Counted from the stretch's first letter, positions 32,292-63,047 are shown. The stretch is DNA of 64,000 nucleotides from Planctomycetota bacterium (GCA_016872595.1 VGZJ01000001.1:5117-69116); one strand, 5' to 3'. Notes: generated from the letters alone by a model not told the origin. Numbers and translations: made by a program.

Positions 32292-34821
<2,530 letters not shown>

Positions 34822-34844
<23 letters not shown>

Positions 34845-46920: not shown

Positions 46921-47934
46921 ATGTATCGCCTACTCACCCTCTCGGCGCTCGTCGCGCTCGCGGCTCCGCGCGCCAGCGCCGCGGACGCCAAGCCGCTCGC
47001 GCTCGAGGGGCACGCGGCCGGCGTGCCCGCGGTCGTCTTCATCGGCGACGGGAAGGTTCTCGCCACAGGGAGCGAGGACATGACCGTGAAGTTGTGGGAC
47101 GCCGCCACCGGCAAGGAACTTGCGGCACTGAAGACCGGCGCGGTGCAGTCGCTCGCCAGTTCGCGCGACGGGGCGCGGCTCGCGGTCGGCGCGCACACCG
47201 GTACGGTGCGCGTGTGGGACGTCGAGACGCGCAAGGAACTGCTAGCGTACAAATCGTCCAAAGGCGATACCGCGGGGCTGGAGTTCTCGCCCGACGGCAA
47301 GGTCCTCGCGGTCGGCGGCGGCGGGTTCGACGGCAAGGCCGACAAAGCGTTCGGCTCGATCACGCTGCTGAACGCGACCGACGGGCGCGAACTGATGTCG
47401 GTCCCGTGGCCCGACAACCGCGTGACCGGGATCGCCTTCGCCCCGGACGGCAAGACACTCGCGGCGTGCAGCAGCAACGGCACGGTCGTGCTGTGGGACA
47501 CGGCCACCGGCAAGAAGATCAGCGACCTTGGCACGAACCCGAACGGCGCGAGCGGCCTCGCCTATTCGCCGGACGGCAAGCTCGTGGCGTGCGGCAACTT
47601 CTACCGCGAACTCACCATCAAGTTGTGGGACGTGACAACCGGCAAGGAGGTACGCACGCTCACGAAGAAGTCGAACGTGTCCGCGTTCGCGCTGCGGTTC
47701 GGCCCGGACAGCAAGACGCTGGCCGTGGGCGGGTTCGATCAGGACGCGCTGCGCGACACCAAGGCGCGCGGCGCGTACGTCGCGCTGTGGGACACCGACA
47801 CCGGCAAGGAGCGCGCGCTCGCCGGCCACACGCGCGGGGTGACGTCCGTGGCGCTGTCGCGCGACGGAACACGCCTCGCTGCGAGCGGACTCGACAAGGC
47901 CGCGCGCGTGTGGGAGTTGAAGGAAGACAAATAA
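46921..47934 (+). CDS. secreted WD40-repeat protein
   Basis: Signal peptide MYRLLTLSALVALAAPRASA. Repeated ..DG..LA.G..D.TV.LWD.. blades. Confidence 0.88.
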   Translation: MYRLLTLSALVALAAPRASAADAKPLALEGHAAGVPAVVFIGDGKVLATGSEDMTVKLWDAATGKELAALKTGAVQSLASSRDGARLAVGAHTGTVRVWDVETRKELLAYKSSKGDTAGLEFSPDGKVLAVGGGGFDGKADKAFGSITLLNATDGRELMSVPWPDNRVTGIAFAPDGKTLAACSSNGTVVLWDTATGKKISDLGTNPNGASGLAYSPDGKLVACGNFYRELTIKLWDVTTGKEVRTLTKKSNVSAFALRFGPDSKTLAVGGFDQDALRDTKARGAYVALWDTDTGKERALAGHTRGVTSVALSRDGTRLAASGLDKAARVWELKEDK

Positions 47935-57936: not shown

Positions 57937-58428
57937 GAGGTAGAAGTGTAGTCTGCGGGGCGTACGAAAAAAACGCCGCCGCGATTGAACCGCACCTTCA
58001 TCCTGTAATAGTAAAAAACGAGGGAGCACAGTAAACGGATGTGCGCGTCGGCGTTATGTTTCGGCCGCCGGAAGCCAACACAGGAAGTGTTGTGCAACAT
58101 CCTCAACACGTGCCACATCGGAGCGCGTGACCGACGGGTCGTTTTCTCGAGTCTGGTACGCAGTTCTTTGCTCGTTATCAGAGCAGGCTTGCAGTCGAGG
58201 TGCGCGCAGGGTGCTCTTTCAAGCCCGCGGCACGCGGAAACGCCTAACCACATCACGAACAAGTCATAACAGGCTCTGGGGAAGCCGAACGGCCGCGGTT
58301 CGGGGTACTCGGCACACGGAATCGAGCCGCAGTGTGGCGAAAAGCGCGAAAAATCACGCGCGGGGTACGTCCTATTTTCCGCACGGCGCGCCCCGGCGCG
58401 CCCTCTCCCCGCGTTGGAGCCAGTGCCC

Positions 58429-59268
58429 ATGCCGTACAGCGCCGAAATCAACCGCGCACAGCCCACGAGCTTCGTGTTCCTCGTCGATCAATCGGGGTCG
58501 ATGGGCGACCCCATCGGCGGAACCGGGCGGCGCAAGTCCGAGGCCGTCGCCGACGCCATCAACCGATTGCTCCACGCCCTCGTGCGGCGCTCGACGAAGG
58601 GCGACGGCGTGCGCGACTACTTCCACATCGGGGTAATCGGGTACGGGGCGAAGGTGGGGCCGGCACTCGGCGGCAAGCTGACGCCGGAACAGCTGGTGCC
58701 GATCAGCGCTGTGGCGGACAACGTGTTGCGGGTCGAGGAGCGAACGAAAAAGGTGGACGACGGCATGGGCGGCGTCGCGTCCATGACGGCCAAGATGCAG
58801 GTGTGGTTCGAGCCGGTGGCGGACGGCTCGACGCCGATGTGTGCCGCGCTCGAACAGGCCCGGCAGCGGGTCGCGGCGTTCGCGGCCCGCTACCCGCACG
58901 CCCACCCGCCCATCGTTCTCAACATCACCGACGGCGAGGCCGACGACCCGGAAGCGGCGGTCGAAGCCGCGGCCGGTGCGGTCCGCGCGGTCGCCACCAC
59001 CGACGGCAACGTGTTGCTGTTCAACCTGCACGTGTCGTGCTCGAACTGGAACCCGGTATCGTACCCGGACTCCGACGCGGCCCTGCCCGACAAGTACGCG
59101 CGGCTGCTGTACCGCACGTCGAGCGTGCTGACCCCGCGGGCCGTGACCCTCGCGGGCGCGAAGGGCTATCGCGTGAGCGCGGCGTCGCGCGGGTTCGTGT
59201 TCAACGGCGACGCCGTGACCGTGAGCGAGTTCCTCGACATCGGCACGCAGGTCCCGCCCCCCCGGTAG
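58429..59268 (+). CDS. vWA-domain protein (TerY-like)
   Basis: MIDAS motif VFLVDQSGSM, and ITDGEADD later. GGAG lies 9 nt upstream of ATG 58429. Confidence 0.85.
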   Translation: MPYSAEINRAQPTSFVFLVDQSGSMGDPIGGTGRRKSEAVADAINRLLHALVRRSTKGDGVRDYFHIGVIGYGAKVGPALGGKLTPEQLVPISAVADNVLRVEERTKKVDDGMGGVASMTAKMQVWFEPVADGSTPMCAALEQARQRVAAFAARYPHAHPPIVLNITDGEADDPEAAVEAAAGAVRAVATTDGNVLLFNLHVSCSNWNPVSYPDSDAALPDKYARLLYRTSSVLTPRAVTLAGAKGYRVSAASRGFVFNGDAVTVSEFLDIGTQVPPPR

Positions 59269-59279
59269 CGCGCACCCCC

Positions 59280-59987
59280 ATGCCGACCCGCTCTGCCACG
59301 TTCTGGGTTCCGAAGCGCGGCCACGCGCCGGAGGAGTACGAGGACGCCGCCGCCGCGGTCGACGGCGCGGGCCGGTACGCCGTCGCGGACGGGGCCGCGG
59401 AGAGCGCGTTCGCGCGGCCGTGGGCCGAGGCGCTGGTTCGCGCGTTCGTGGCCCTGCCGCCGGCGCGCACCGCGTGGGGCGAGTGGCTCCCGGGGGCACA
59501 GACCGCGTGGGCGGACGCCGTCGGCACCGGGCCGCGCCCGTGGTACGTCGAAGAAAAGGTCGAGGAGGGCGCGTTCGCCACGTTCGCCGGCCTCGTGATC
59601 GACGACGACGGGTGGCGGGCGTTCGCGGTGGGCGACGCTTGCGTGTTCCAGTTCCGCGCCGGGGCGCTGGCGTCCGCGTTCCCGGTGGAGCACGCGGCCG
59701 ACTTCGGCACCGTGCCCAAGTTGCTCAACTCGCGCGCCGCGCCCGCGCGGGCCGAGGCCGACGCCGACGCCACCCCCGGCGACCGACTCCCCGGCGACTG
59801 CTTCCTGCTCGCCACCGACGCCCTCGCCCAGTGGGTGCTGCGCCGGCACGAGGCCGGGGCCGGGCCGTGGGTCGAGCTCGAACCGGCCCTGACCGGGGAC
59901 GGGCCGTTCGCGGAGTGGGTGAGCGCCCGCCGCGCCGCGGGCGCGATGAAGAACGACGACGTGACGCTGATCGTGGTTCACACCTGA
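59280..59987 (+). CDS. PP2C-family Ser/Thr phosphatase
   Basis: ..EDAAAAV..YAVADGAAES.., GDACVFQ, ATDAL, DDVTLIVV metal-binding motifs. It starts 11 nt after the vWA gene. Confidence 0.8.
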   Translation: MPTRSATFWVPKRGHAPEEYEDAAAAVDGAGRYAVADGAAESAFARPWAEALVRAFVALPPARTAWGEWLPGAQTAWADAVGTGPRPWYVEEKVEEGAFATFAGLVIDDDGWRAFAVGDACVFQFRAGALASAFPVEHAADFGTVPKLLNSRAAPARAEADADATPGDRLPGDCFLLATDALAQWVLRRHEAGAGPWVELEPALTGDGPFAEWVSARRAAGAMKNDDVTLIVVHT

Positions 59988-60007
59988 CGCGCGCCGGAGG
60001 CCCCGCG

Positions 60008-62545
60008 ATGCCGCTCCCGACCGGGTCGGACTACTTCGAGGCGATCCAGAACCCGCAGTTCTGCTTCGAGCGCCCGGCGCTGCGCGGCGGCCGGGTCGTG
60101 TGCGACGGGGCCGGCGTACCGAAGCCGATCACGGGAAACTTCGCCGAGGTGTACGAGTTCATTGGTGCCGGCGGCAAGCGCTGGGCGGTGAAGTGCTTCA
60201 CCCGCGAGATCGCCCAACTCCACCACCGCTACTCCACGACCGACGCGGCGCTGAAGGCGGCGCGCGCCGAACACGACCTGTCGTTCCTCGCCGGGTTCGA
60301 GTACGTGCCGCACGGCATCCGCGTAAACGGCGCGTGGCACCCCGTGGTACTGATGGACTGGGTGCAGGGGCAACTGCTCAACGACTTCGTGCGCGGCCAG
60401 TTGCACGCCCCGCACCGGTTGAAGGGGCTGGCGGAGATTTGGGTGCGGCTGGCCCAGAACCTGCGCGACGCCGGGATCGCCCACGGCGACCTGCAACACG
60501 GCAACGTGATGCTCGTGACGACCCCGCGCACCGCGCGCGTGGTGCTGGTGGACTACGACGGCATGTACGTGCCCGCCCTCGCCGGCACGCCCGCGAGCGA
60601 GTGCGGGCACCCGAGCTACCAGCACCCGGAGCGCGCCGGCGACCCGTTCCACGCCGAGGCGGATCGGTTCCCGCTGCTGGTGGTGTGCGCCGCGATCCGC
60701 GCGCTCGCGGCCGGCGGGCAAGCCCTGTGGGACCGGCACGACAACGGCGACAACTTGCTGTTCCGCGAAGCCGACCTGAAGAACCCGGGCGGGTCCCCAC
60801 TGCTGCGCGAACTGTGGGCGCTGCCCGACCCCGCGGCGCGCGCGCTGGCCGGGTGGGTGGTACTCGCGAGCCGGATGCCGCAGCGCGAAGTCCCGCACCT
60901 CGCGGACGTCTGGGCCGGCGGCGCGCCGCGCCTGACCGCCGAACAGCGGAAGCAGGTGGACCGCGTCCTCGGTGGGCGCGCCCCAGCGCTCGAACCGAAG
61001 CCGCCACCCGCTGCGACACCGGCACCGTCGCCCCGCACGATCCCCGTTCCCGCGGCGCGGCTCGCGCCGACGCCCGCGCCACGGATGCCCCCGAAGAAGG
61101 GACTGAAAAGGAAGAAGGGCAAACCTGCGTCGCCGCTCGCGGCCGTGGTCGCCCTCAGCGGCGGGTTGCTGTGTGCCTTCGCGGTTGGCCTGATCCTGTC
61201 ACGGAATCTTGCCGCGCCGAAGCCCGCGGTCGAAACGGCGACCGCGCCGGAGCCACCGATAAACGCCCCGCCGACGGTACCCGTGCCGCAACCGCTCCCG
61301 AAAGTGCCGCCGAACAAGCCGCCGCCGAAGCCGCCCGCGCCGGAACCGCCCAAGAAGCCGAGCGCCGAGCTGCGCCTCGCCGCCGGCCCCGTGACCCTCA
61401 AGCCGGGTCAGCGGGTGAGCGTCGACGTGAACCTGACGCGCGACGGCACCTTCGGCCCCGTGGTGCTCACGCCCACAGCGGTGACAAAGGGGCTAACTGT
61501 CACGCAGGGCGTGCCCGCGTTCGGCGACACCGTGCGGGTCGAACTCGCCGCCGCCACGGACCTCGCGCCGGGAACCGTGACGGTGCGGTTCCGCTCGGAG
61601 TTGGGCGGGGTCGCGACGGGCGCGCCGTTCGAGCTGACGGTGAAGGTCGTGCCGCTCTCCGCCCCGGCCGGCACCGGCGACGTGCTCGCCACCCTCGACG
61701 GGACCGTGTACCGCACCGCGATCAGCGCGGACGGGACCCGCGCCGTGGCCGGCGGCGTGGGCGGCCAGTTGCAGCGCGTGGACCTCAAGACCGGGGCCGA
61801 ACTGCCGCCGCTCAAGGGCACCATCGGGTTGATCCAGCACATGAGCGCTTCGGCCGACGGCACGCGCGCCGTGGTCGCGTTCGGGCAGGTGATCGAGGTC
61901 TGGGACCTGAGCGCCGGGAAGGTGCTTCACAAGCTGACATTCGGCGCGCGCCACGTCACGGCGCTCGCGCTCTCCGCGAACGGCAAACGGGCCGCTGTGG
62001 GCGGATTGGAGGGCGACATTCAGGTTTGGGAAGCGGACTCCGGCAAGGAACTCGCGCGCCTGACCGGGCACACGAAGATGATCGGCGGGCTGGCGCTCTC
62101 CGCGGACGGCACGCGCGCCCTCTCCTGCGCGCACGACAAGACCGCGCGCGTTTGGGACGTACTCACCGCGACCGAGTTGCGGCAGCTCCCCGCGACGCAG
62201 TTCATGCAGACCGTGGCCGCGCTCTCCGCGGACGGCAAACGCGCCGTCACCGCCGGGTACACGAAACTGCACGTGTGGGACGTATCCAACGGGAAGGAAC
62301 TGCACCGCCTCGAACCCAACACCGGGTACATCCAAGGCGTGGCCCTCACTCCGGACGGAAAGCGCGCGGCGTCCGTCGGACTCGCTAAAATGGTCATCGT
62401 GTGGAACCTCGACACGGGCAAGGAGCTGCGCCGGTTCGACGGCCACACGGACTACCTCAAGTCCGTCGGCATCACCGCGGACGGCACGCGCGCGGTGTCC
62501 GGCGGGAACGACAAGACCGTGCGCCTGTGGCGACTCAACGACTGA
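60008..62545 (+). CDS. membrane-spanning protein kinase with an extracytoplasmic beta-sandwich and a 7-bladed WD40 propeller
   Basis: N-terminal kinase (YFEAIQNP.., WAVKCF, HGDLQHGNVM, VDYDG), a Pro-rich linker, TM helix LAAVVALSGGLLCAFAVGLIL, then 7 repeats carrying S(A/P)DG(T/K)RA. Confidence 0.88.
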   Translation: MPLPTGSDYFEAIQNPQFCFERPALRGGRVVCDGAGVPKPITGNFAEVYEFIGAGGKRWAVKCFTREIAQLHHRYSTTDAALKAARAEHDLSFLAGFEYVPHGIRVNGAWHPVVLMDWVQGQLLNDFVRGQLHAPHRLKGLAEIWVRLAQNLRDAGIAHGDLQHGNVMLVTTPRTARVVLVDYDGMYVPALAGTPASECGHPSYQHPERAGDPFHAEADRFPLLVVCAAIRALAAGGQALWDRHDNGDNLLFREADLKNPGGSPLLRELWALPDPAARALAGWVVLASRMPQREVPHLADVWAGGAPRLTAEQRKQVDRVLGGRAPALEPKPPPAATPAPSPRTIPVPAARLAPTPAPRMPPKKGLKRKKGKPASPLAAVVALSGGLLCAFAVGLILSRNLAAPKPAVETATAPEPPINAPPTVPVPQPLPKVPPNKPPPKPPAPEPPKKPSAELRLAAGPVTLKPGQRVSVDVNLTRDGTFGPVVLTPTAVTKGLTVTQGVPAFGDTVRVELAAATDLAPGTVTVRFRSELGGVATGAPFELTVKVVPLSAPAGTGDVLATLDGTVYRTAISADGTRAVAGGVGGQLQRVDLKTGAELPPLKGTIGLIQHMSASADGTRAVVAFGQVIEVWDLSAGKVLHKLTFGARHVTALALSANGKRAAVGGLEGDIQVWEADSGKELARLTGHTKMIGGLALSADGTRALSCAHDKTARVWDVLTATELRQLPATQFMQTVAALSADGKRAVTAGYTKLHVWDVSNGKELHRLEPNTGYIQGVALTPDGKRAASVGLAKMVIVWNLDTGKELRRFDGHTDYLKSVGITADGTRAVSGGNDKTVRLWRLND

Positions 62546-62588: not shown

Positions 62589-63047
62589 ATGACACGACCT
62601 CGTATGACGAGCGAAAAAGACTTCCAAGGCGTGCTCGACAAGAACCCCGGTGACTGGCAGACGCGCCTCGTGTTCGCCGACTGGCTCGACGAGCGCGGCG
62701 ACGAGCGCGCCGCGGGCTACCGCGCGCTGGGCGTGCAGCGCGTGTACCCGCGCGGCGGGAACAGCCACTGCTGGAGCCGCGCCAAAGAAACGAACTGGTG
62801 CCTGTACCGCGGGCACGAGGCGCTCGTCGACGACTGGTTCGACCTGACCACCCACAAGGGCGAGCCGGTCCACGCGATCTTCCGGAGCCGGCGCAAGGCC
62901 GAAGACGCCGCGGCCCGGTCGTTCCTCAAGCTCCCCGCCGAGCGGCGGGCGTACCTGCTGAGCGAGTTCGTCCCGCACCCGCCGGTGCCGGTCAAGCCCG
63001 CCGCTCCGCCCACGGCCGTACCGGAAACGAAACCCGCTGCCGAGTAG
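62589..63047 (+). CDS. TIGR02996-domain protein
   Basis: DKNPGDWQTRLVFADWLDERGDERAAGYRALG is the signature of the Gemmata-expanded TIGR02996 N-terminal domain. Confidence 0.8.
   Translation: MTRPRMTSEKDFQGVLDKNPGDWQTRLVFADWLDERGDERAAGYRALGVQRVYPRGGNSHCWSRAKETNWCLYRGHEALVDDWFDLTTHKGEPVHAIFRSRRKAEDAAARSFLKLPAERRAYLLSEFVPHPPVPVKPAAPPTAVPETKPAAE

What the first reader, a model, noticed from the sequence alone, without database searches (positions are those of the whole stretch)
58429..62545. TerY-P-like vWA / PP2C / kinase triad in which the kinase is a transmembrane receptor with a WD40 propeller
Seen: three genes are packed with 11-nt and 20-nt gaps. The first is a vWA protein with an intact MIDAS motif (DQSGS). 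The second is a PP2C phosphatase (ADGAAES, DDVTLIVV). The third is an 845-aa kinase. Its kinase domain is atypical: HGDLQHGN instead of HRDLKPxN, and DYDG instead of DFG, closer to APH/ELK-type kinases. It is followed by a Pro-rich linker, one clear TM helix (LAAVVALSGGLLCAFAVGLIL), a beta-sandwich-like segment and seven WD40 blades each carrying S(A/P)DG(T/K)RA. Upstream lies a ~490-nt lower-GC intergenic region. Established: the vWA(TerY)-PP2C-kinase arrangement is the TerY-P triad defined by comparative genomics of tellurite-resistance-associated genes, and it was later reported as an antiphage system in a large 2020 heterologous screen. Inference: as I recall those kinases, they are soluble. 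Here the kinase would place a beta-propeller outside the cytoplasmic membrane. That suggests a variant in which an extracytoplasmic cue, rather than or in addition to an intracellular one, drives phosphorylation of the vWA partner. This receptor-type architecture may be undescribed.
Basis: partly seen in the sequence, partly recalled or inferred. Interest (0 to 1): 0.7.

Follow-up and report, generated by a model that had tools for sequence, protein, structure and literature searches.

The report
Membrane receptor version of TerY-P triad
Three tightly packed genes encode a metal-binding adaptor, a phosphatase and a membrane-spanning kinase with a seven-bladed propeller predicted to face the periplasm; this is a real but common planctomycete variant of a known phosphorylation triad whose reference form defends against phages.

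Summary
The vWA (58429-59268), PP2C (59280-59987) and 845-aa kinase (60008-62545) genes lie on the + strand with 11- and 20-nt gaps. PADLOC profiles place them in TerY (E 9.5e-95), PP2C (2e-29) and STK_OB (1.8e-67). The kinase matches only positions 1-296 of 562, so the OB part of the reference is absent. In its place are a basic Pro-rich linker, one TM helix, a beta-sandwich and a seven-blade WD40 propeller.

- The kinase has a Hanks/eukaryotic-type fold (non-RD, HGD), not an APH-like one.
- Relatives are not typically soluble. About 85% of close relatives carry a TM helix after the kinase domain, and two kinases matching most of STK_OB end in hydrophobic tails.

The architecture is not rare. 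Of the 120 best full-length hits, 104 are kinase+TM+WD40. In other genomes, 52 of 61 kinase genes with enough upstream DNA have vWA+PP2C directly upstream.

Planctomycete kinases with periplasmic WD40 arrays are published. I found no paper linking them to TerY-P. The gene neighbourhood is housekeeping, so a defence role is unproven.

Verdict: a new variant of a known kind, of moderate interest.

The parts
57937..58428 (.). Divergent intergenic region between nhaA (-) and the triad (+), with lower GC. Only the last ~148 nt (from 58281) are conserved with the orthologous locus.
   Evidence: GC 0.59-0.60. Gene calls. Nucleotide homology with L082 begins at 58281. No Rfam family and no sigma-70-like site.
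58429..59268 (+). TerY-like vWA protein, 279 aa, with an intact MIDAS (D20, S22, S24, T135, D168).
   Evidence: PADLOC TerY E 9.5e-95 over the full length. Pfam VWA_2. MIDAS residues are 100% conserved in 62 homologues. No hydrophobic segment.
59280..59987 (+). PP2C-family phosphatase, 235 aa, with its metal-binding aspartates intact (D22, D37-G38, D119, D180, D226-D227).
   Evidence: PADLOC PP2C E 2e-29 over the full length. Pfam PP2C_2 is below its cut-off. Invariant acidic residues in 58 homologues.
60008..62545 (+). Receptor-type TerY-P kinase, 845 aa, whole gene.
60008..60922 (+). Cytoplasmic kinase domain (aa 1-305). Non-RD Hanks-type fold with K62, H159-G-D161-L-Q-H-G-N166 and D182-Y-D-G.
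   Evidence: PADLOC STK_OB E 1.8e-67, profile positions 1-296 of 562. Invariant residues in alignment A1. Model pLDDT 92. Foldseek best hits are CaMKII, ASK1, DAPK and PknS. Motif equivalences.
60923..61132 (+). Pro-rich juxtamembrane linker (aa 306-375) ending in a polybasic stretch, KKGLKRKKGK.
   Evidence: Sequence. 7 K/R in the residues before the helix. 59% identity to the ortholog, against 94% for the kinase domain.
61133..61201 (+). Single transmembrane helix (aa 376-398).
   Evidence: Kyte-Doolittle window score 2.45, the only segment above threshold. The positive-inside pattern places the N-terminus in the cytoplasm.
61202..61369 (+). Pro-rich, probably disordered extracytoplasmic linker (aa 399-454).
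   Evidence: pLDDT about 46-55. 48% identity to the ortholog.
61370..61648 (+). Beta-sandwich domain (aa ~455-547) with no family assignment.
   Evidence: Eight strands, pLDDT about 72-84. No Pfam hit (protein 7). 55% identity to the ortholog.
61673..62542 (+). Seven-blade WD40 propeller (aa 556-845), predicted periplasmic.
   Evidence: Pfam WD40 and beta-propeller families. Model pLDDT above 90 with 27 strands. Best PDB match is 5yzv, the WD40 domain of Thermomonospora curvata PkwA (TM 0.93, rmsd 1.8 A). Seven [ST][AP][DN]G[TK]RA motifs.

Best explanation
This is a three-gene phosphorylation switch of the TerY-P type. Its kinase belongs to a large, mostly planctomycete clade of single-pass receptor kinases.

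Proposed mechanism:
1. The kinase domain sits in the cytoplasm.
2. The beta-sandwich and seven-blade WD40 propeller sit in the periplasm and bind a macromolecular ligand, a protein or a glycan.
3. Ligand binding changes kinase output, probably through clustering or dimerisation. The kinase is non-RD (HGD), so it is unlikely to depend on activation-loop phosphorylation.
4. The kinase phosphorylates a cytoplasmic partner. The most likely partner is the co-encoded vWA protein or a site that its MIDAS then binds.
5. The PP2C reverses this phosphorylation.

Shown here: family membership of the three proteins, intact catalytic and MIDAS residues, conservation of the triad, and predicted topology.

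Inferred: the ligand, the substrate, and the biological role (envelope or environment sensing versus phage defence).
For: Family membership: PADLOC TerY 9.5e-95, PP2C 2e-29, STK_OB 1.8e-67.

Intact active sites:
- MIDAS and PP2C aspartates are invariant.
- Kinase K62, D161, N166 and D182 are invariant.
- Hanks-type fold, model pLDDT 92.

Conserved unit:
- vWA>PP2C>kinase in this order upstream of 52 of 61 related kinases.
- No other recurrent neighbour.
- The 77% ortholog keeps the triad.

Topology:
- One TM helix.
- K/R count 7 before versus 2 after the helix; in the family the N-side carries more in 80 of 101.
- Domains found after the TM helix in relatives are PA14, Laminin_G_3, NPCBM, B_lectin, DUF1080, PEGA and FGE-sulfatase, typical of secreted or glycan-binding proteins.
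- DeepTMHMM-based published work places WD40/TPR arrays of planctomycete kinases in the periplasm (PMC11032199).

Modular sensor:
- Among the 149 nearest representatives, 127 have a TM helix, 55 have WD40, and the median length after the TM is 497 aa.
- WD40 status barely follows kinase-domain similarity: 28 of 55 versus 37 of 94.
- Against the 77% ortholog, the outside parts diverge faster than the cytoplasmic ones. Propeller 85.5% and sandwich 55%, against kinase domain 94%, vWA 92% and PP2C 91.5%.
Against: - No experiment bears on this locus.
- Topology rests on hydropathy, the positive-inside rule and family context, not on a dedicated predictor or reporter fusions.
- Phosphorylation of the vWA protein has not been shown for any TerY-P triad in the literature I could read.
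- Pfam Pkinase does not hit this protein at E<=0.1.
- 7 of 61 related kinases lack an upstream vWA/PP2C, so the kinase can also occur without them.
- The surrounding genes are housekeeping (GltB, HtrA-like, ScpB, NuoH, NhaA), which gives no support for a defence role.
Confidence: 0.55

Rival explanations
1. It is an antiphage defence system in the strict TerY-P sense. The periplasmic propeller detects a phage component during adsorption or genome entry, and the phospho-switch triggers protection or abortive infection.
For: - All three proteins hit the profiles built from the TerY-P defence system.
- The triad alone was reported active against T7-like phages (Gao et al. 2020, as summarised in PMC7699616).
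- No other conserved partner gene occurs, so the triad is self-sufficient.
- The outside domains diverge fastest and are exchanged among close kinase relatives.
- Several genomes carry more than one locus.
- A synteny break lies directly upstream of the triad.
Against: - The tested system has an OB-fold kinase. That part is absent here (profile 297-562 unmatched).
- The neighbourhood is housekeeping, not a defence island.
- No effector domain is evident.
- The outside domains in relatives look like glycan or substrate binders, which fits nutrient or envelope sensing equally well.
- Planctomycete receptor kinases are expanded generally as signalling proteins (PMC11032199).
Confidence: 0.25
2. 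The hydrophobic segment is not a membrane span, or the topology is inverted. The WD40 propeller would then be a cytoplasmic scaffold, as in PkwA-type STK-WD40 proteins and STAND-type WD40 sensors.
For: - The best structural match of the propeller is the WD40 of PkwA, an actinobacterial kinase-WD40 protein.
- WD40 is classically a cytoplasmic fold.
- 11 of the 120 best full-length hits have kinase+WD40 with no segment above my hydropathy threshold.
- In 10 of 101 single-pass relatives the charge bias is reversed.
Against: - The segment is 23 residues long and strongly hydrophobic (score 2.45), with a polybasic stretch on the kinase side.
- A kinase needs cytoplasmic ATP.
- 104 of 120 relatives share the helix in the same position.
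- The post-TM regions of relatives hold secreted-type domains.
- Published predictions for the class place the WD40 arrays in the periplasm.
Confidence: 0.1
3. The three genes are unrelated neighbours, and the resemblance to a triad is coincidental.
For: The Pfam hits to VWA_2 and PP2C_2 are weak for these proteins.
Against: - The PADLOC profiles are hit at E 1e-95 to 1e-29.
- The same order and strand occur in 52 of 61 loci from many phyla.
- The gaps of 11 and 20 nt indicate one transcription unit.
Confidence: 0.01

Closest known systems
TerY-P (TerY-phosphorylation triad). Defined by Anantharaman, Iyer and Aravind 2012; reported as an antiphage system by Gao et al. 2020; PADLOC models TerY, PP2C and STK_OB.
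   Same: - A vWA protein with MIDAS, a PP2C and a divergent Ser/Thr kinase in one operon.
- All three proteins hit the system's profiles.
- The triad is the only conserved unit.
   Different: - The kinase lacks the OB-fold part of the reference. Only profile positions 1-296 of 562 match.
- It also lacks the zinc ribbon described for CoCoNuT-linked triads (PMC11090510).
- Instead it has an internal TM helix followed by about 450 residues predicted to lie outside the cytoplasm.
- No ter genes or DNA-processing genes were seen among the neighbours scanned.
Planctomycetota membrane Ser/Thr kinases with periplasmic WD40 or TPR arrays (Odelgard et al. 2024, PMC11032199).
   Same: A cytoplasmic kinase domain, usually one TM helix, and C-terminal WD40 repeats predicted to be periplasmic. 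Reported also for Gemmataceae.
   Different: - That survey was based on Pfam Pkinase, which does not hit this protein at E<=0.1.
- It does not mention vWA or PP2C partners (0 occurrences).
- Here the kinase belongs to the TerY-P-type clade and sits in a triad.
PkwA of Thermomonospora curvata (Ser/Thr kinase fused to seven WD40 repeats; PDB 5yzv).
   Same: A kinase with a C-terminal seven-blade WD40 propeller. The propeller is the closest solved structure (TM 0.93, 29% identity).
   Different: - The kinase subfamily differs.
- I know of no vWA/PP2C partners for PkwA.
- I did not check the PkwA sequence for a TM helix.
Receptor Ser/Thr kinases paired with a PP2C: PknB/PstP and StkP/PhpP. Also M. 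tuberculosis PknD with an extracellular NHL beta-propeller. These are cited from my own knowledge.
   Same: The logic is the same: an extracytoplasmic sensor, one TM helix, a cytoplasmic Hanks-type kinase and a cognate PP2C that resets the signal. PknD shows that a propeller can serve as the outside sensor.
   Different: - The sensor folds differ (PASTA, NHL).
- There is no vWA partner.
- Those are RD kinases, whereas this one is non-RD (HGD).
Actinobacterial GAP1-N2-linked kinase + PP2C + vWA sets (Kaur et al. 2020, PMC7159879).
   Same: [quoted passage not shown]
   Different: Those sets are linked to a GTPase-centred conflict system. No WD40 outside domain is described there, and the lineage is different.

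Membership tests
TerY-P triad | TerY-like vWA protein with an intact MIDAS | tested here: met
   PADLOC TerY E 9.5e-95, profile 1-272 of 277. D20/S22/S24/T135/D168 are invariant in 62 homologues.
TerY-P triad | PP2C-family phosphatase with catalytic aspartates | tested here: met
   PADLOC PP2C E 2e-29, profile 9-238 of 242. D22, D37-G38, D119, D180 and D226-D227 are conserved.
TerY-P triad | Ser/Thr kinase domain of the TerY-P subfamily | tested here: met
   PADLOC STK_OB E 1.8e-67 over profile 1-296. Family motif H[GAC]DLQHGN. Hanks-type fold.
TerY-P triad | The three genes adjacent, co-oriented and conserved together | tested here: met
   Gaps of 11 and 20 nt. vWA+PP2C upstream of 52 of 61 related kinases. 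The ortholog locus L082 keeps the triad.
TerY-P triad, experimentally validated form (PADLOC STK_OB) | C-terminal OB-fold domain on the kinase | tested here: not met
   Profile positions 297-562 are unmatched. By contrast, L063 and L040 match positions 1-500 and 1-519. Here the region after the kinase domain is a linker, a TM helix, a sandwich and WD40.
TerY-P triad | Protection against phage | not testable with these tools
   Reported only for the reference system (PMC7699616). There are no data for this variant.
TerY-P triad (2012 definition) | Linkage to ter genes or to DNA-processing/restriction modules | tested here: not met
   The neighbours scanned (32-64 kb) are GltB, an HtrA-like protease, ScpB, NuoH, a solute-binding protein, YfhO-like, NhaA, a TIGR02996 protein and an ATP-grasp protein. 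The only restriction-like gene lies 24 kb away. To my knowledge this linkage is frequent rather than obligatory.
Planctomycete receptor Ser/Thr kinases with periplasmic WD40 (PMC11032199) | Cytoplasmic kinase, a single TM helix and a C-terminal WD40 array outside the cytoplasm | tested here: met
   One TM helix at aa 376-398. Charge bias. Seven-blade propeller. The topology is predicted, not measured.
Planctomycete receptor Ser/Thr kinases with periplasmic WD40 (PMC11032199) | Detected by Pfam Pkinase (PF00069) | tested here: not met
   No PF00069 hit at E<=0.1 for this protein. Many relatives do carry a precomputed PF00069 hit.
APH/ELK-type (aminoglycoside-phosphotransferase-like) kinases | APH-like fold without the Hanks-type activation segment and C-lobe | tested here: not met
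   The best 50 Foldseek hits listed are eukaryotic-type or Hanks-type protein kinases. Equivalents of the activation segment DFG...APE are present.

The most novel reading that the evidence does not exclude
The planctomycete-centred clade of TerY-P triads would be a diversified family of periplasm-facing pattern-recognition receptors. Each would consist of:
- a non-RD kinase on a conserved chassis;
- exchangeable propeller or lectin-like outside domains;
- a PP2C brake;
- a vWA adaptor.

Such receptors would detect phage or other invaders at the envelope before genome entry. This would be a bacterial counterpart of plant receptor-like-kinase immunity, and it would give the TerY-P defence system its first identified input.
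Probability: 0.12. Interest if true: 0.8.

Novelty: new variant of a known kind. Interest (0 to 1): 0.42.

Why it matters
How TerY-P works is unknown. Neither its trigger nor its substrate has been identified in the literature I could read. A large natural set of triads with a conserved kinase, PP2C and vWA but interchangeable outside sensor domains would suggest that the input is read by the kinase's C-terminal module. It would also offer ligands to test.

The finding links two separate literatures: the expanded receptor kinases of Planctomycetota, and defence-associated phosphorylation triads. It also corrects an assumption, because membrane attachment appears to be the rule in this kinase family rather than the exception.

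If the role is ordinary envelope or nutrient sensing, the locus is one more member of a big signalling family. In that case, profile-based defence finders would over-call TerY-P in planctomycetes.

Tried and rejected
- The 2012 TerY-P paper (PubMed id 23044854, PMC4104200) and Gao et al. 2020 (PMC7985843) are not held in the library. I could not check which kinase architectures they list.
- Literature searches for TerY-P with WD40, PP2C or vWA found no description of this architecture.
- The upstream intergenic region has no Rfam family and no sigma-70-like promoter. Nothing further was pursued there.
- I looked for a fourth conserved gene or effector next to the triad in 80 loci. Only shadow ORFs and sporadic neighbours turned up.
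- The downstream TIGR02996 gene is 91% identical in the ortholog locus. This is ordinary synteny that continues into the next gene, so I rejected it as a system component.
- I searched the window for a second triad and found none.
- I looked for a defence-island context and found none.
- The beta-sandwich has no Pfam family.

Full report
**1. What is in the sequence**

Three + strand genes lie at 58429-59268 (279 aa), 59280-59987 (235 aa) and 60008-62545 (845 aa). The gaps between them are 11 and 20 nt. An independent gene call on a public contig with identical sequence gives the same three products.

The window is about 72% GC. The 492-nt stretch between the divergently transcribed nhaA gene and the first gene drops to about 0.59-0.60 GC. 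This stretch holds no Rfam family and no sigma-70-like site.

**2. Family assignment**

| Protein | PADLOC profile | E-value | Coverage |
|---|---|---|---|
| vWA | TerY | 9.5e-95 | full length |
| PP2C | PP2C | 2e-29 | full length |
| kinase | STK_OB | 1.8e-67 | profile 1-296 of 562 only |

Pfam is much weaker. VWA_2 is just above its cut-off, PP2C_2 is below its cut-off, and there is no Pkinase hit. Pfam does give strong WD40 and beta-propeller hits at kinase residues about 563-845.

Functional residues are intact and conserved in homologues collected from other genomes:
- vWA MIDAS: D20, S22, S24, T135 and D168 are 100% conserved in 62 sequences.
- PP2C: D22, D37-G38, D119, D180 and D226-D227 are conserved in 58 sequences.
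- Kinase: K62, H159-G-D161-L-Q-H-G-N166 and D182-Y-D-G are invariant in 31 sequences.

**3. The kinase domain**

An AlphaFold2 model built on alignment A1 has mean pLDDT 92. Its best PDB matches are CaMKII, ASK1, DAPK, ULK1 and the bacterial Hanks-type kinase PknS, with E about 1e-9 and TM-scores of 0.5-0.6.

A profile search of PDB sequences aligns the motifs as follows:
- HGDLQHGN corresponds to HRDLKPEN.
- D182 corresponds to the DFG aspartate.
- GHPxYQHP corresponds to GTPxYxAPE.

The domain is therefore a divergent, non-RD kinase of the eukaryotic/Hanks type.

**4. The rest of the kinase protein**

After the kinase domain the order is:
- a Pro-rich linker ending in KKGLKRKKGK;
- the only strongly hydrophobic segment of the protein, aa 376-398;
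- a Pro-rich, low-confidence linker;
- a beta-sandwich at aa ~455-547, pLDDT about 72-84, with no Pfam family;
- a seven-blade propeller at aa ~558-842 with pLDDT above 90.

The closest solved structure to the propeller is the WD40 domain of the actinobacterial kinase PkwA, PDB 5yzv (TM 0.93, rmsd 1.8 A). A relaxed form occurs once per blade, seven times in all.

**5. Topology**

Several lines point to a cytoplasmic kinase and a periplasmic C-terminus:
- Seven K/R residues precede the helix and two follow it.
- Among 101 single-pass relatives, the kinase side carries more K/R in 80 and fewer in 10.
- In relatives, the regions after the TM helix contain PA14, Laminin_G_3, AbfB, NPCBM, B_lectin, 3-keto-disaccharide hydrolase (DUF1080), PEGA and FGE-sulfatase domains. 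These are typical of secreted, often glycan-binding, proteins.
- A published DeepTMHMM-based survey of Planctomycetota kinases reached the same conclusion for WD40 and TPR arrays (PMC11032199).

This topology is a prediction, not a measurement.

**6. How common the architecture is**

*Kinase domain alone.*
- It finds 3529 cluster representatives (50% identity) at E<=1e-30 among 1.84 billion proteins.
- Of the 149 nearest representatives, 127 have a TM helix after the kinase domain and 55 have WD40. The median length after the last TM helix is 497 residues.

*Full-length protein.*
- Of the 120 best hits, all carry the TerY-P-type kinase domain and 104 are kinase+TM+WD40.
- The closest relative besides the window's own entry is 77% identical (P0122).

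*Exchange and divergence of the outside domains.*
- WD40 status hardly follows kinase-domain similarity. The nearest kinase-domain neighbour is also a WD40 protein for 28 of 55 WD40 kinases and for 37 of 94 others. Outside domains therefore seem to be exchanged on a conserved kinase chassis.
- Between the window protein and its 77% ortholog, identities are as follows.

| Region | Identity to the 77% ortholog |
|---|---|
| kinase domain | 94% |
| vWA | 92% |
| PP2C | 91.5% |
| propeller | 85.5% |
| beta-sandwich | 55% |
| linkers | 48-59% |

**7. Conservation of the triad**

A scan of one genome per species found at least 579 relatives, and 80 loci were fetched.
- Of 61 kinase genes with at least 2.5 kb of upstream DNA, 52 have vWA then PP2C directly upstream on the same strand. 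Two have vWA only and seven have neither. Three of those seven are second kinases in a locus that holds a triad.
- Seventeen kinases have a TM helix followed by WD40. They include loci from Thiotrichaceae and Thiomargarita, so the combination is not confined to planctomycetes.
- No further gene recurs next to the triad.
- In the orthologous locus L082 the triad and the downstream genes are syntenic, but the upstream neighbours differ. Homology begins 148 nt before the vWA start.

**8. The 'soluble kinase' premise**

Two kinases match the STK_OB profile over about 500 of its 562 positions: L063 from Bacteroidales and L040 from Nitrospiraceae. Both end in Gly-rich hydrophobic segments. Membrane attachment therefore looks general in this family. 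The window's variant differs in having an internal TM helix followed by a large outside region, in place of a cytoplasmic OB fold followed by a tail anchor.

**9. Literature**

- TerY-P is described as a vWA protein, a PP2C and a kinase fused to a zinc ribbon in CoCoNuT-linked triads, or to an OB fold in the stand-alone defence system (PMC11090510 and PMC10542128).
- The stand-alone system is reported active against T7-like phages (PMC7699616).
- Kaur et al. [quoted passage not shown]
- Odelgard et al. 2024 describe cytoplasmic-kinase / periplasmic-WD40 proteins in Planctomycetota, without any mention of vWA or PP2C.
- I found no paper joining these observations.
- I could not read the 2012 founding paper or Gao et al. 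2020.

**10. Function**

The genes around the triad are housekeeping: glutamate synthase, an HtrA-like protease, ScpB, NuoH, a solute-binding protein, a YfhO-like protein and NhaA. The nearest restriction-like gene is 24 kb away.

My best reading, at confidence 0.55, is a receptor-kinase phospho-switch:
1. A periplasmic ligand is bound by the sandwich-propeller module.
2. Binding changes kinase output.
3. The vWA protein is the likely target or phospho-site reader.
4. The PP2C resets the state.

Whether the biological role is envelope or nutrient sensing or phage defence is open. I put strict defence at about 0.25.

**11. Verdict**

The locus is a new variant of a known kind. It is also a member of a large family that already sits in the databases and is not a unique find. 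Interest is moderate (0.42). Its main value is in pointing to the kinase C-terminus as the variable input module of TerY-P-type triads, and in linking planctomycete receptor kinases to that system.

Noticed in passing
L040:5998-7695 and L063:2905-4566: These two kinases match the PADLOC STK_OB profile almost end to end. Both finish with Gly-rich hydrophobic tails resembling glycine-zipper TM segments, so the reference-type TerY-P kinase may be tail-anchored rather than soluble.
   Followed up: partly
P0132, P0147, P0241-P0245 (proteins): Some relatives carry two TerY-P-type kinase domains in one polypeptide (tandem kinases).
   Followed up: no
window 58281 (boundary) versus L082:8275: Nucleotide homology with the orthologous locus (88-92% identity) starts 148 nt upstream of the vWA start codon. 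The upstream neighbours differ (nhaA here, a GFO_IDH_MocA oxidoreductase there), so a rearrangement breakpoint abuts the triad.
   Followed up: partly
window 62589-63047 (+): A 152-aa protein with the TIGR02996 'rpt_mate_G_obs' domain typical of Gemmata. It is 91% identical in the ortholog locus, which points to a Gemmataceae origin for the window.
   Followed up: yes
window 32295-34844 (-): An 850-aa protein hits the PADLOC type IIG restriction-methyltransferase profile (E 5.8e-35) and Pfam ResIII. It is the only defence-like gene seen among the neighbours scanned.
   Followed up: no
window 46921-47934 (+): A stand-alone 337-aa WD40 propeller protein with about 30% identity to the kinase's propeller.
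   Followed up: no
L044:5986-6708 and L044:6674-10135: The kinase gene of this Gemmataceae triad is split into two overlapping ORFs. The cause is either a frameshift (pseudogene) or an assembly error.
   Followed up: no
L046:3278-6391 (similar in L041): In Thiomargarita and Thiotrichaceae, a second protein of about 1038 aa with several TM helices and a WD40 domain lies directly downstream of the TM-WD40 kinase.
   Followed up: no
window 60984-61513 (kinase aa 325-502): The linker, TM helix and first half of the beta-sandwich cannot be aligned at the nucleotide level with the 77% ortholog, although the flanks are 88-92% identical. This is a local hypervariable stretch.
   Followed up: partly
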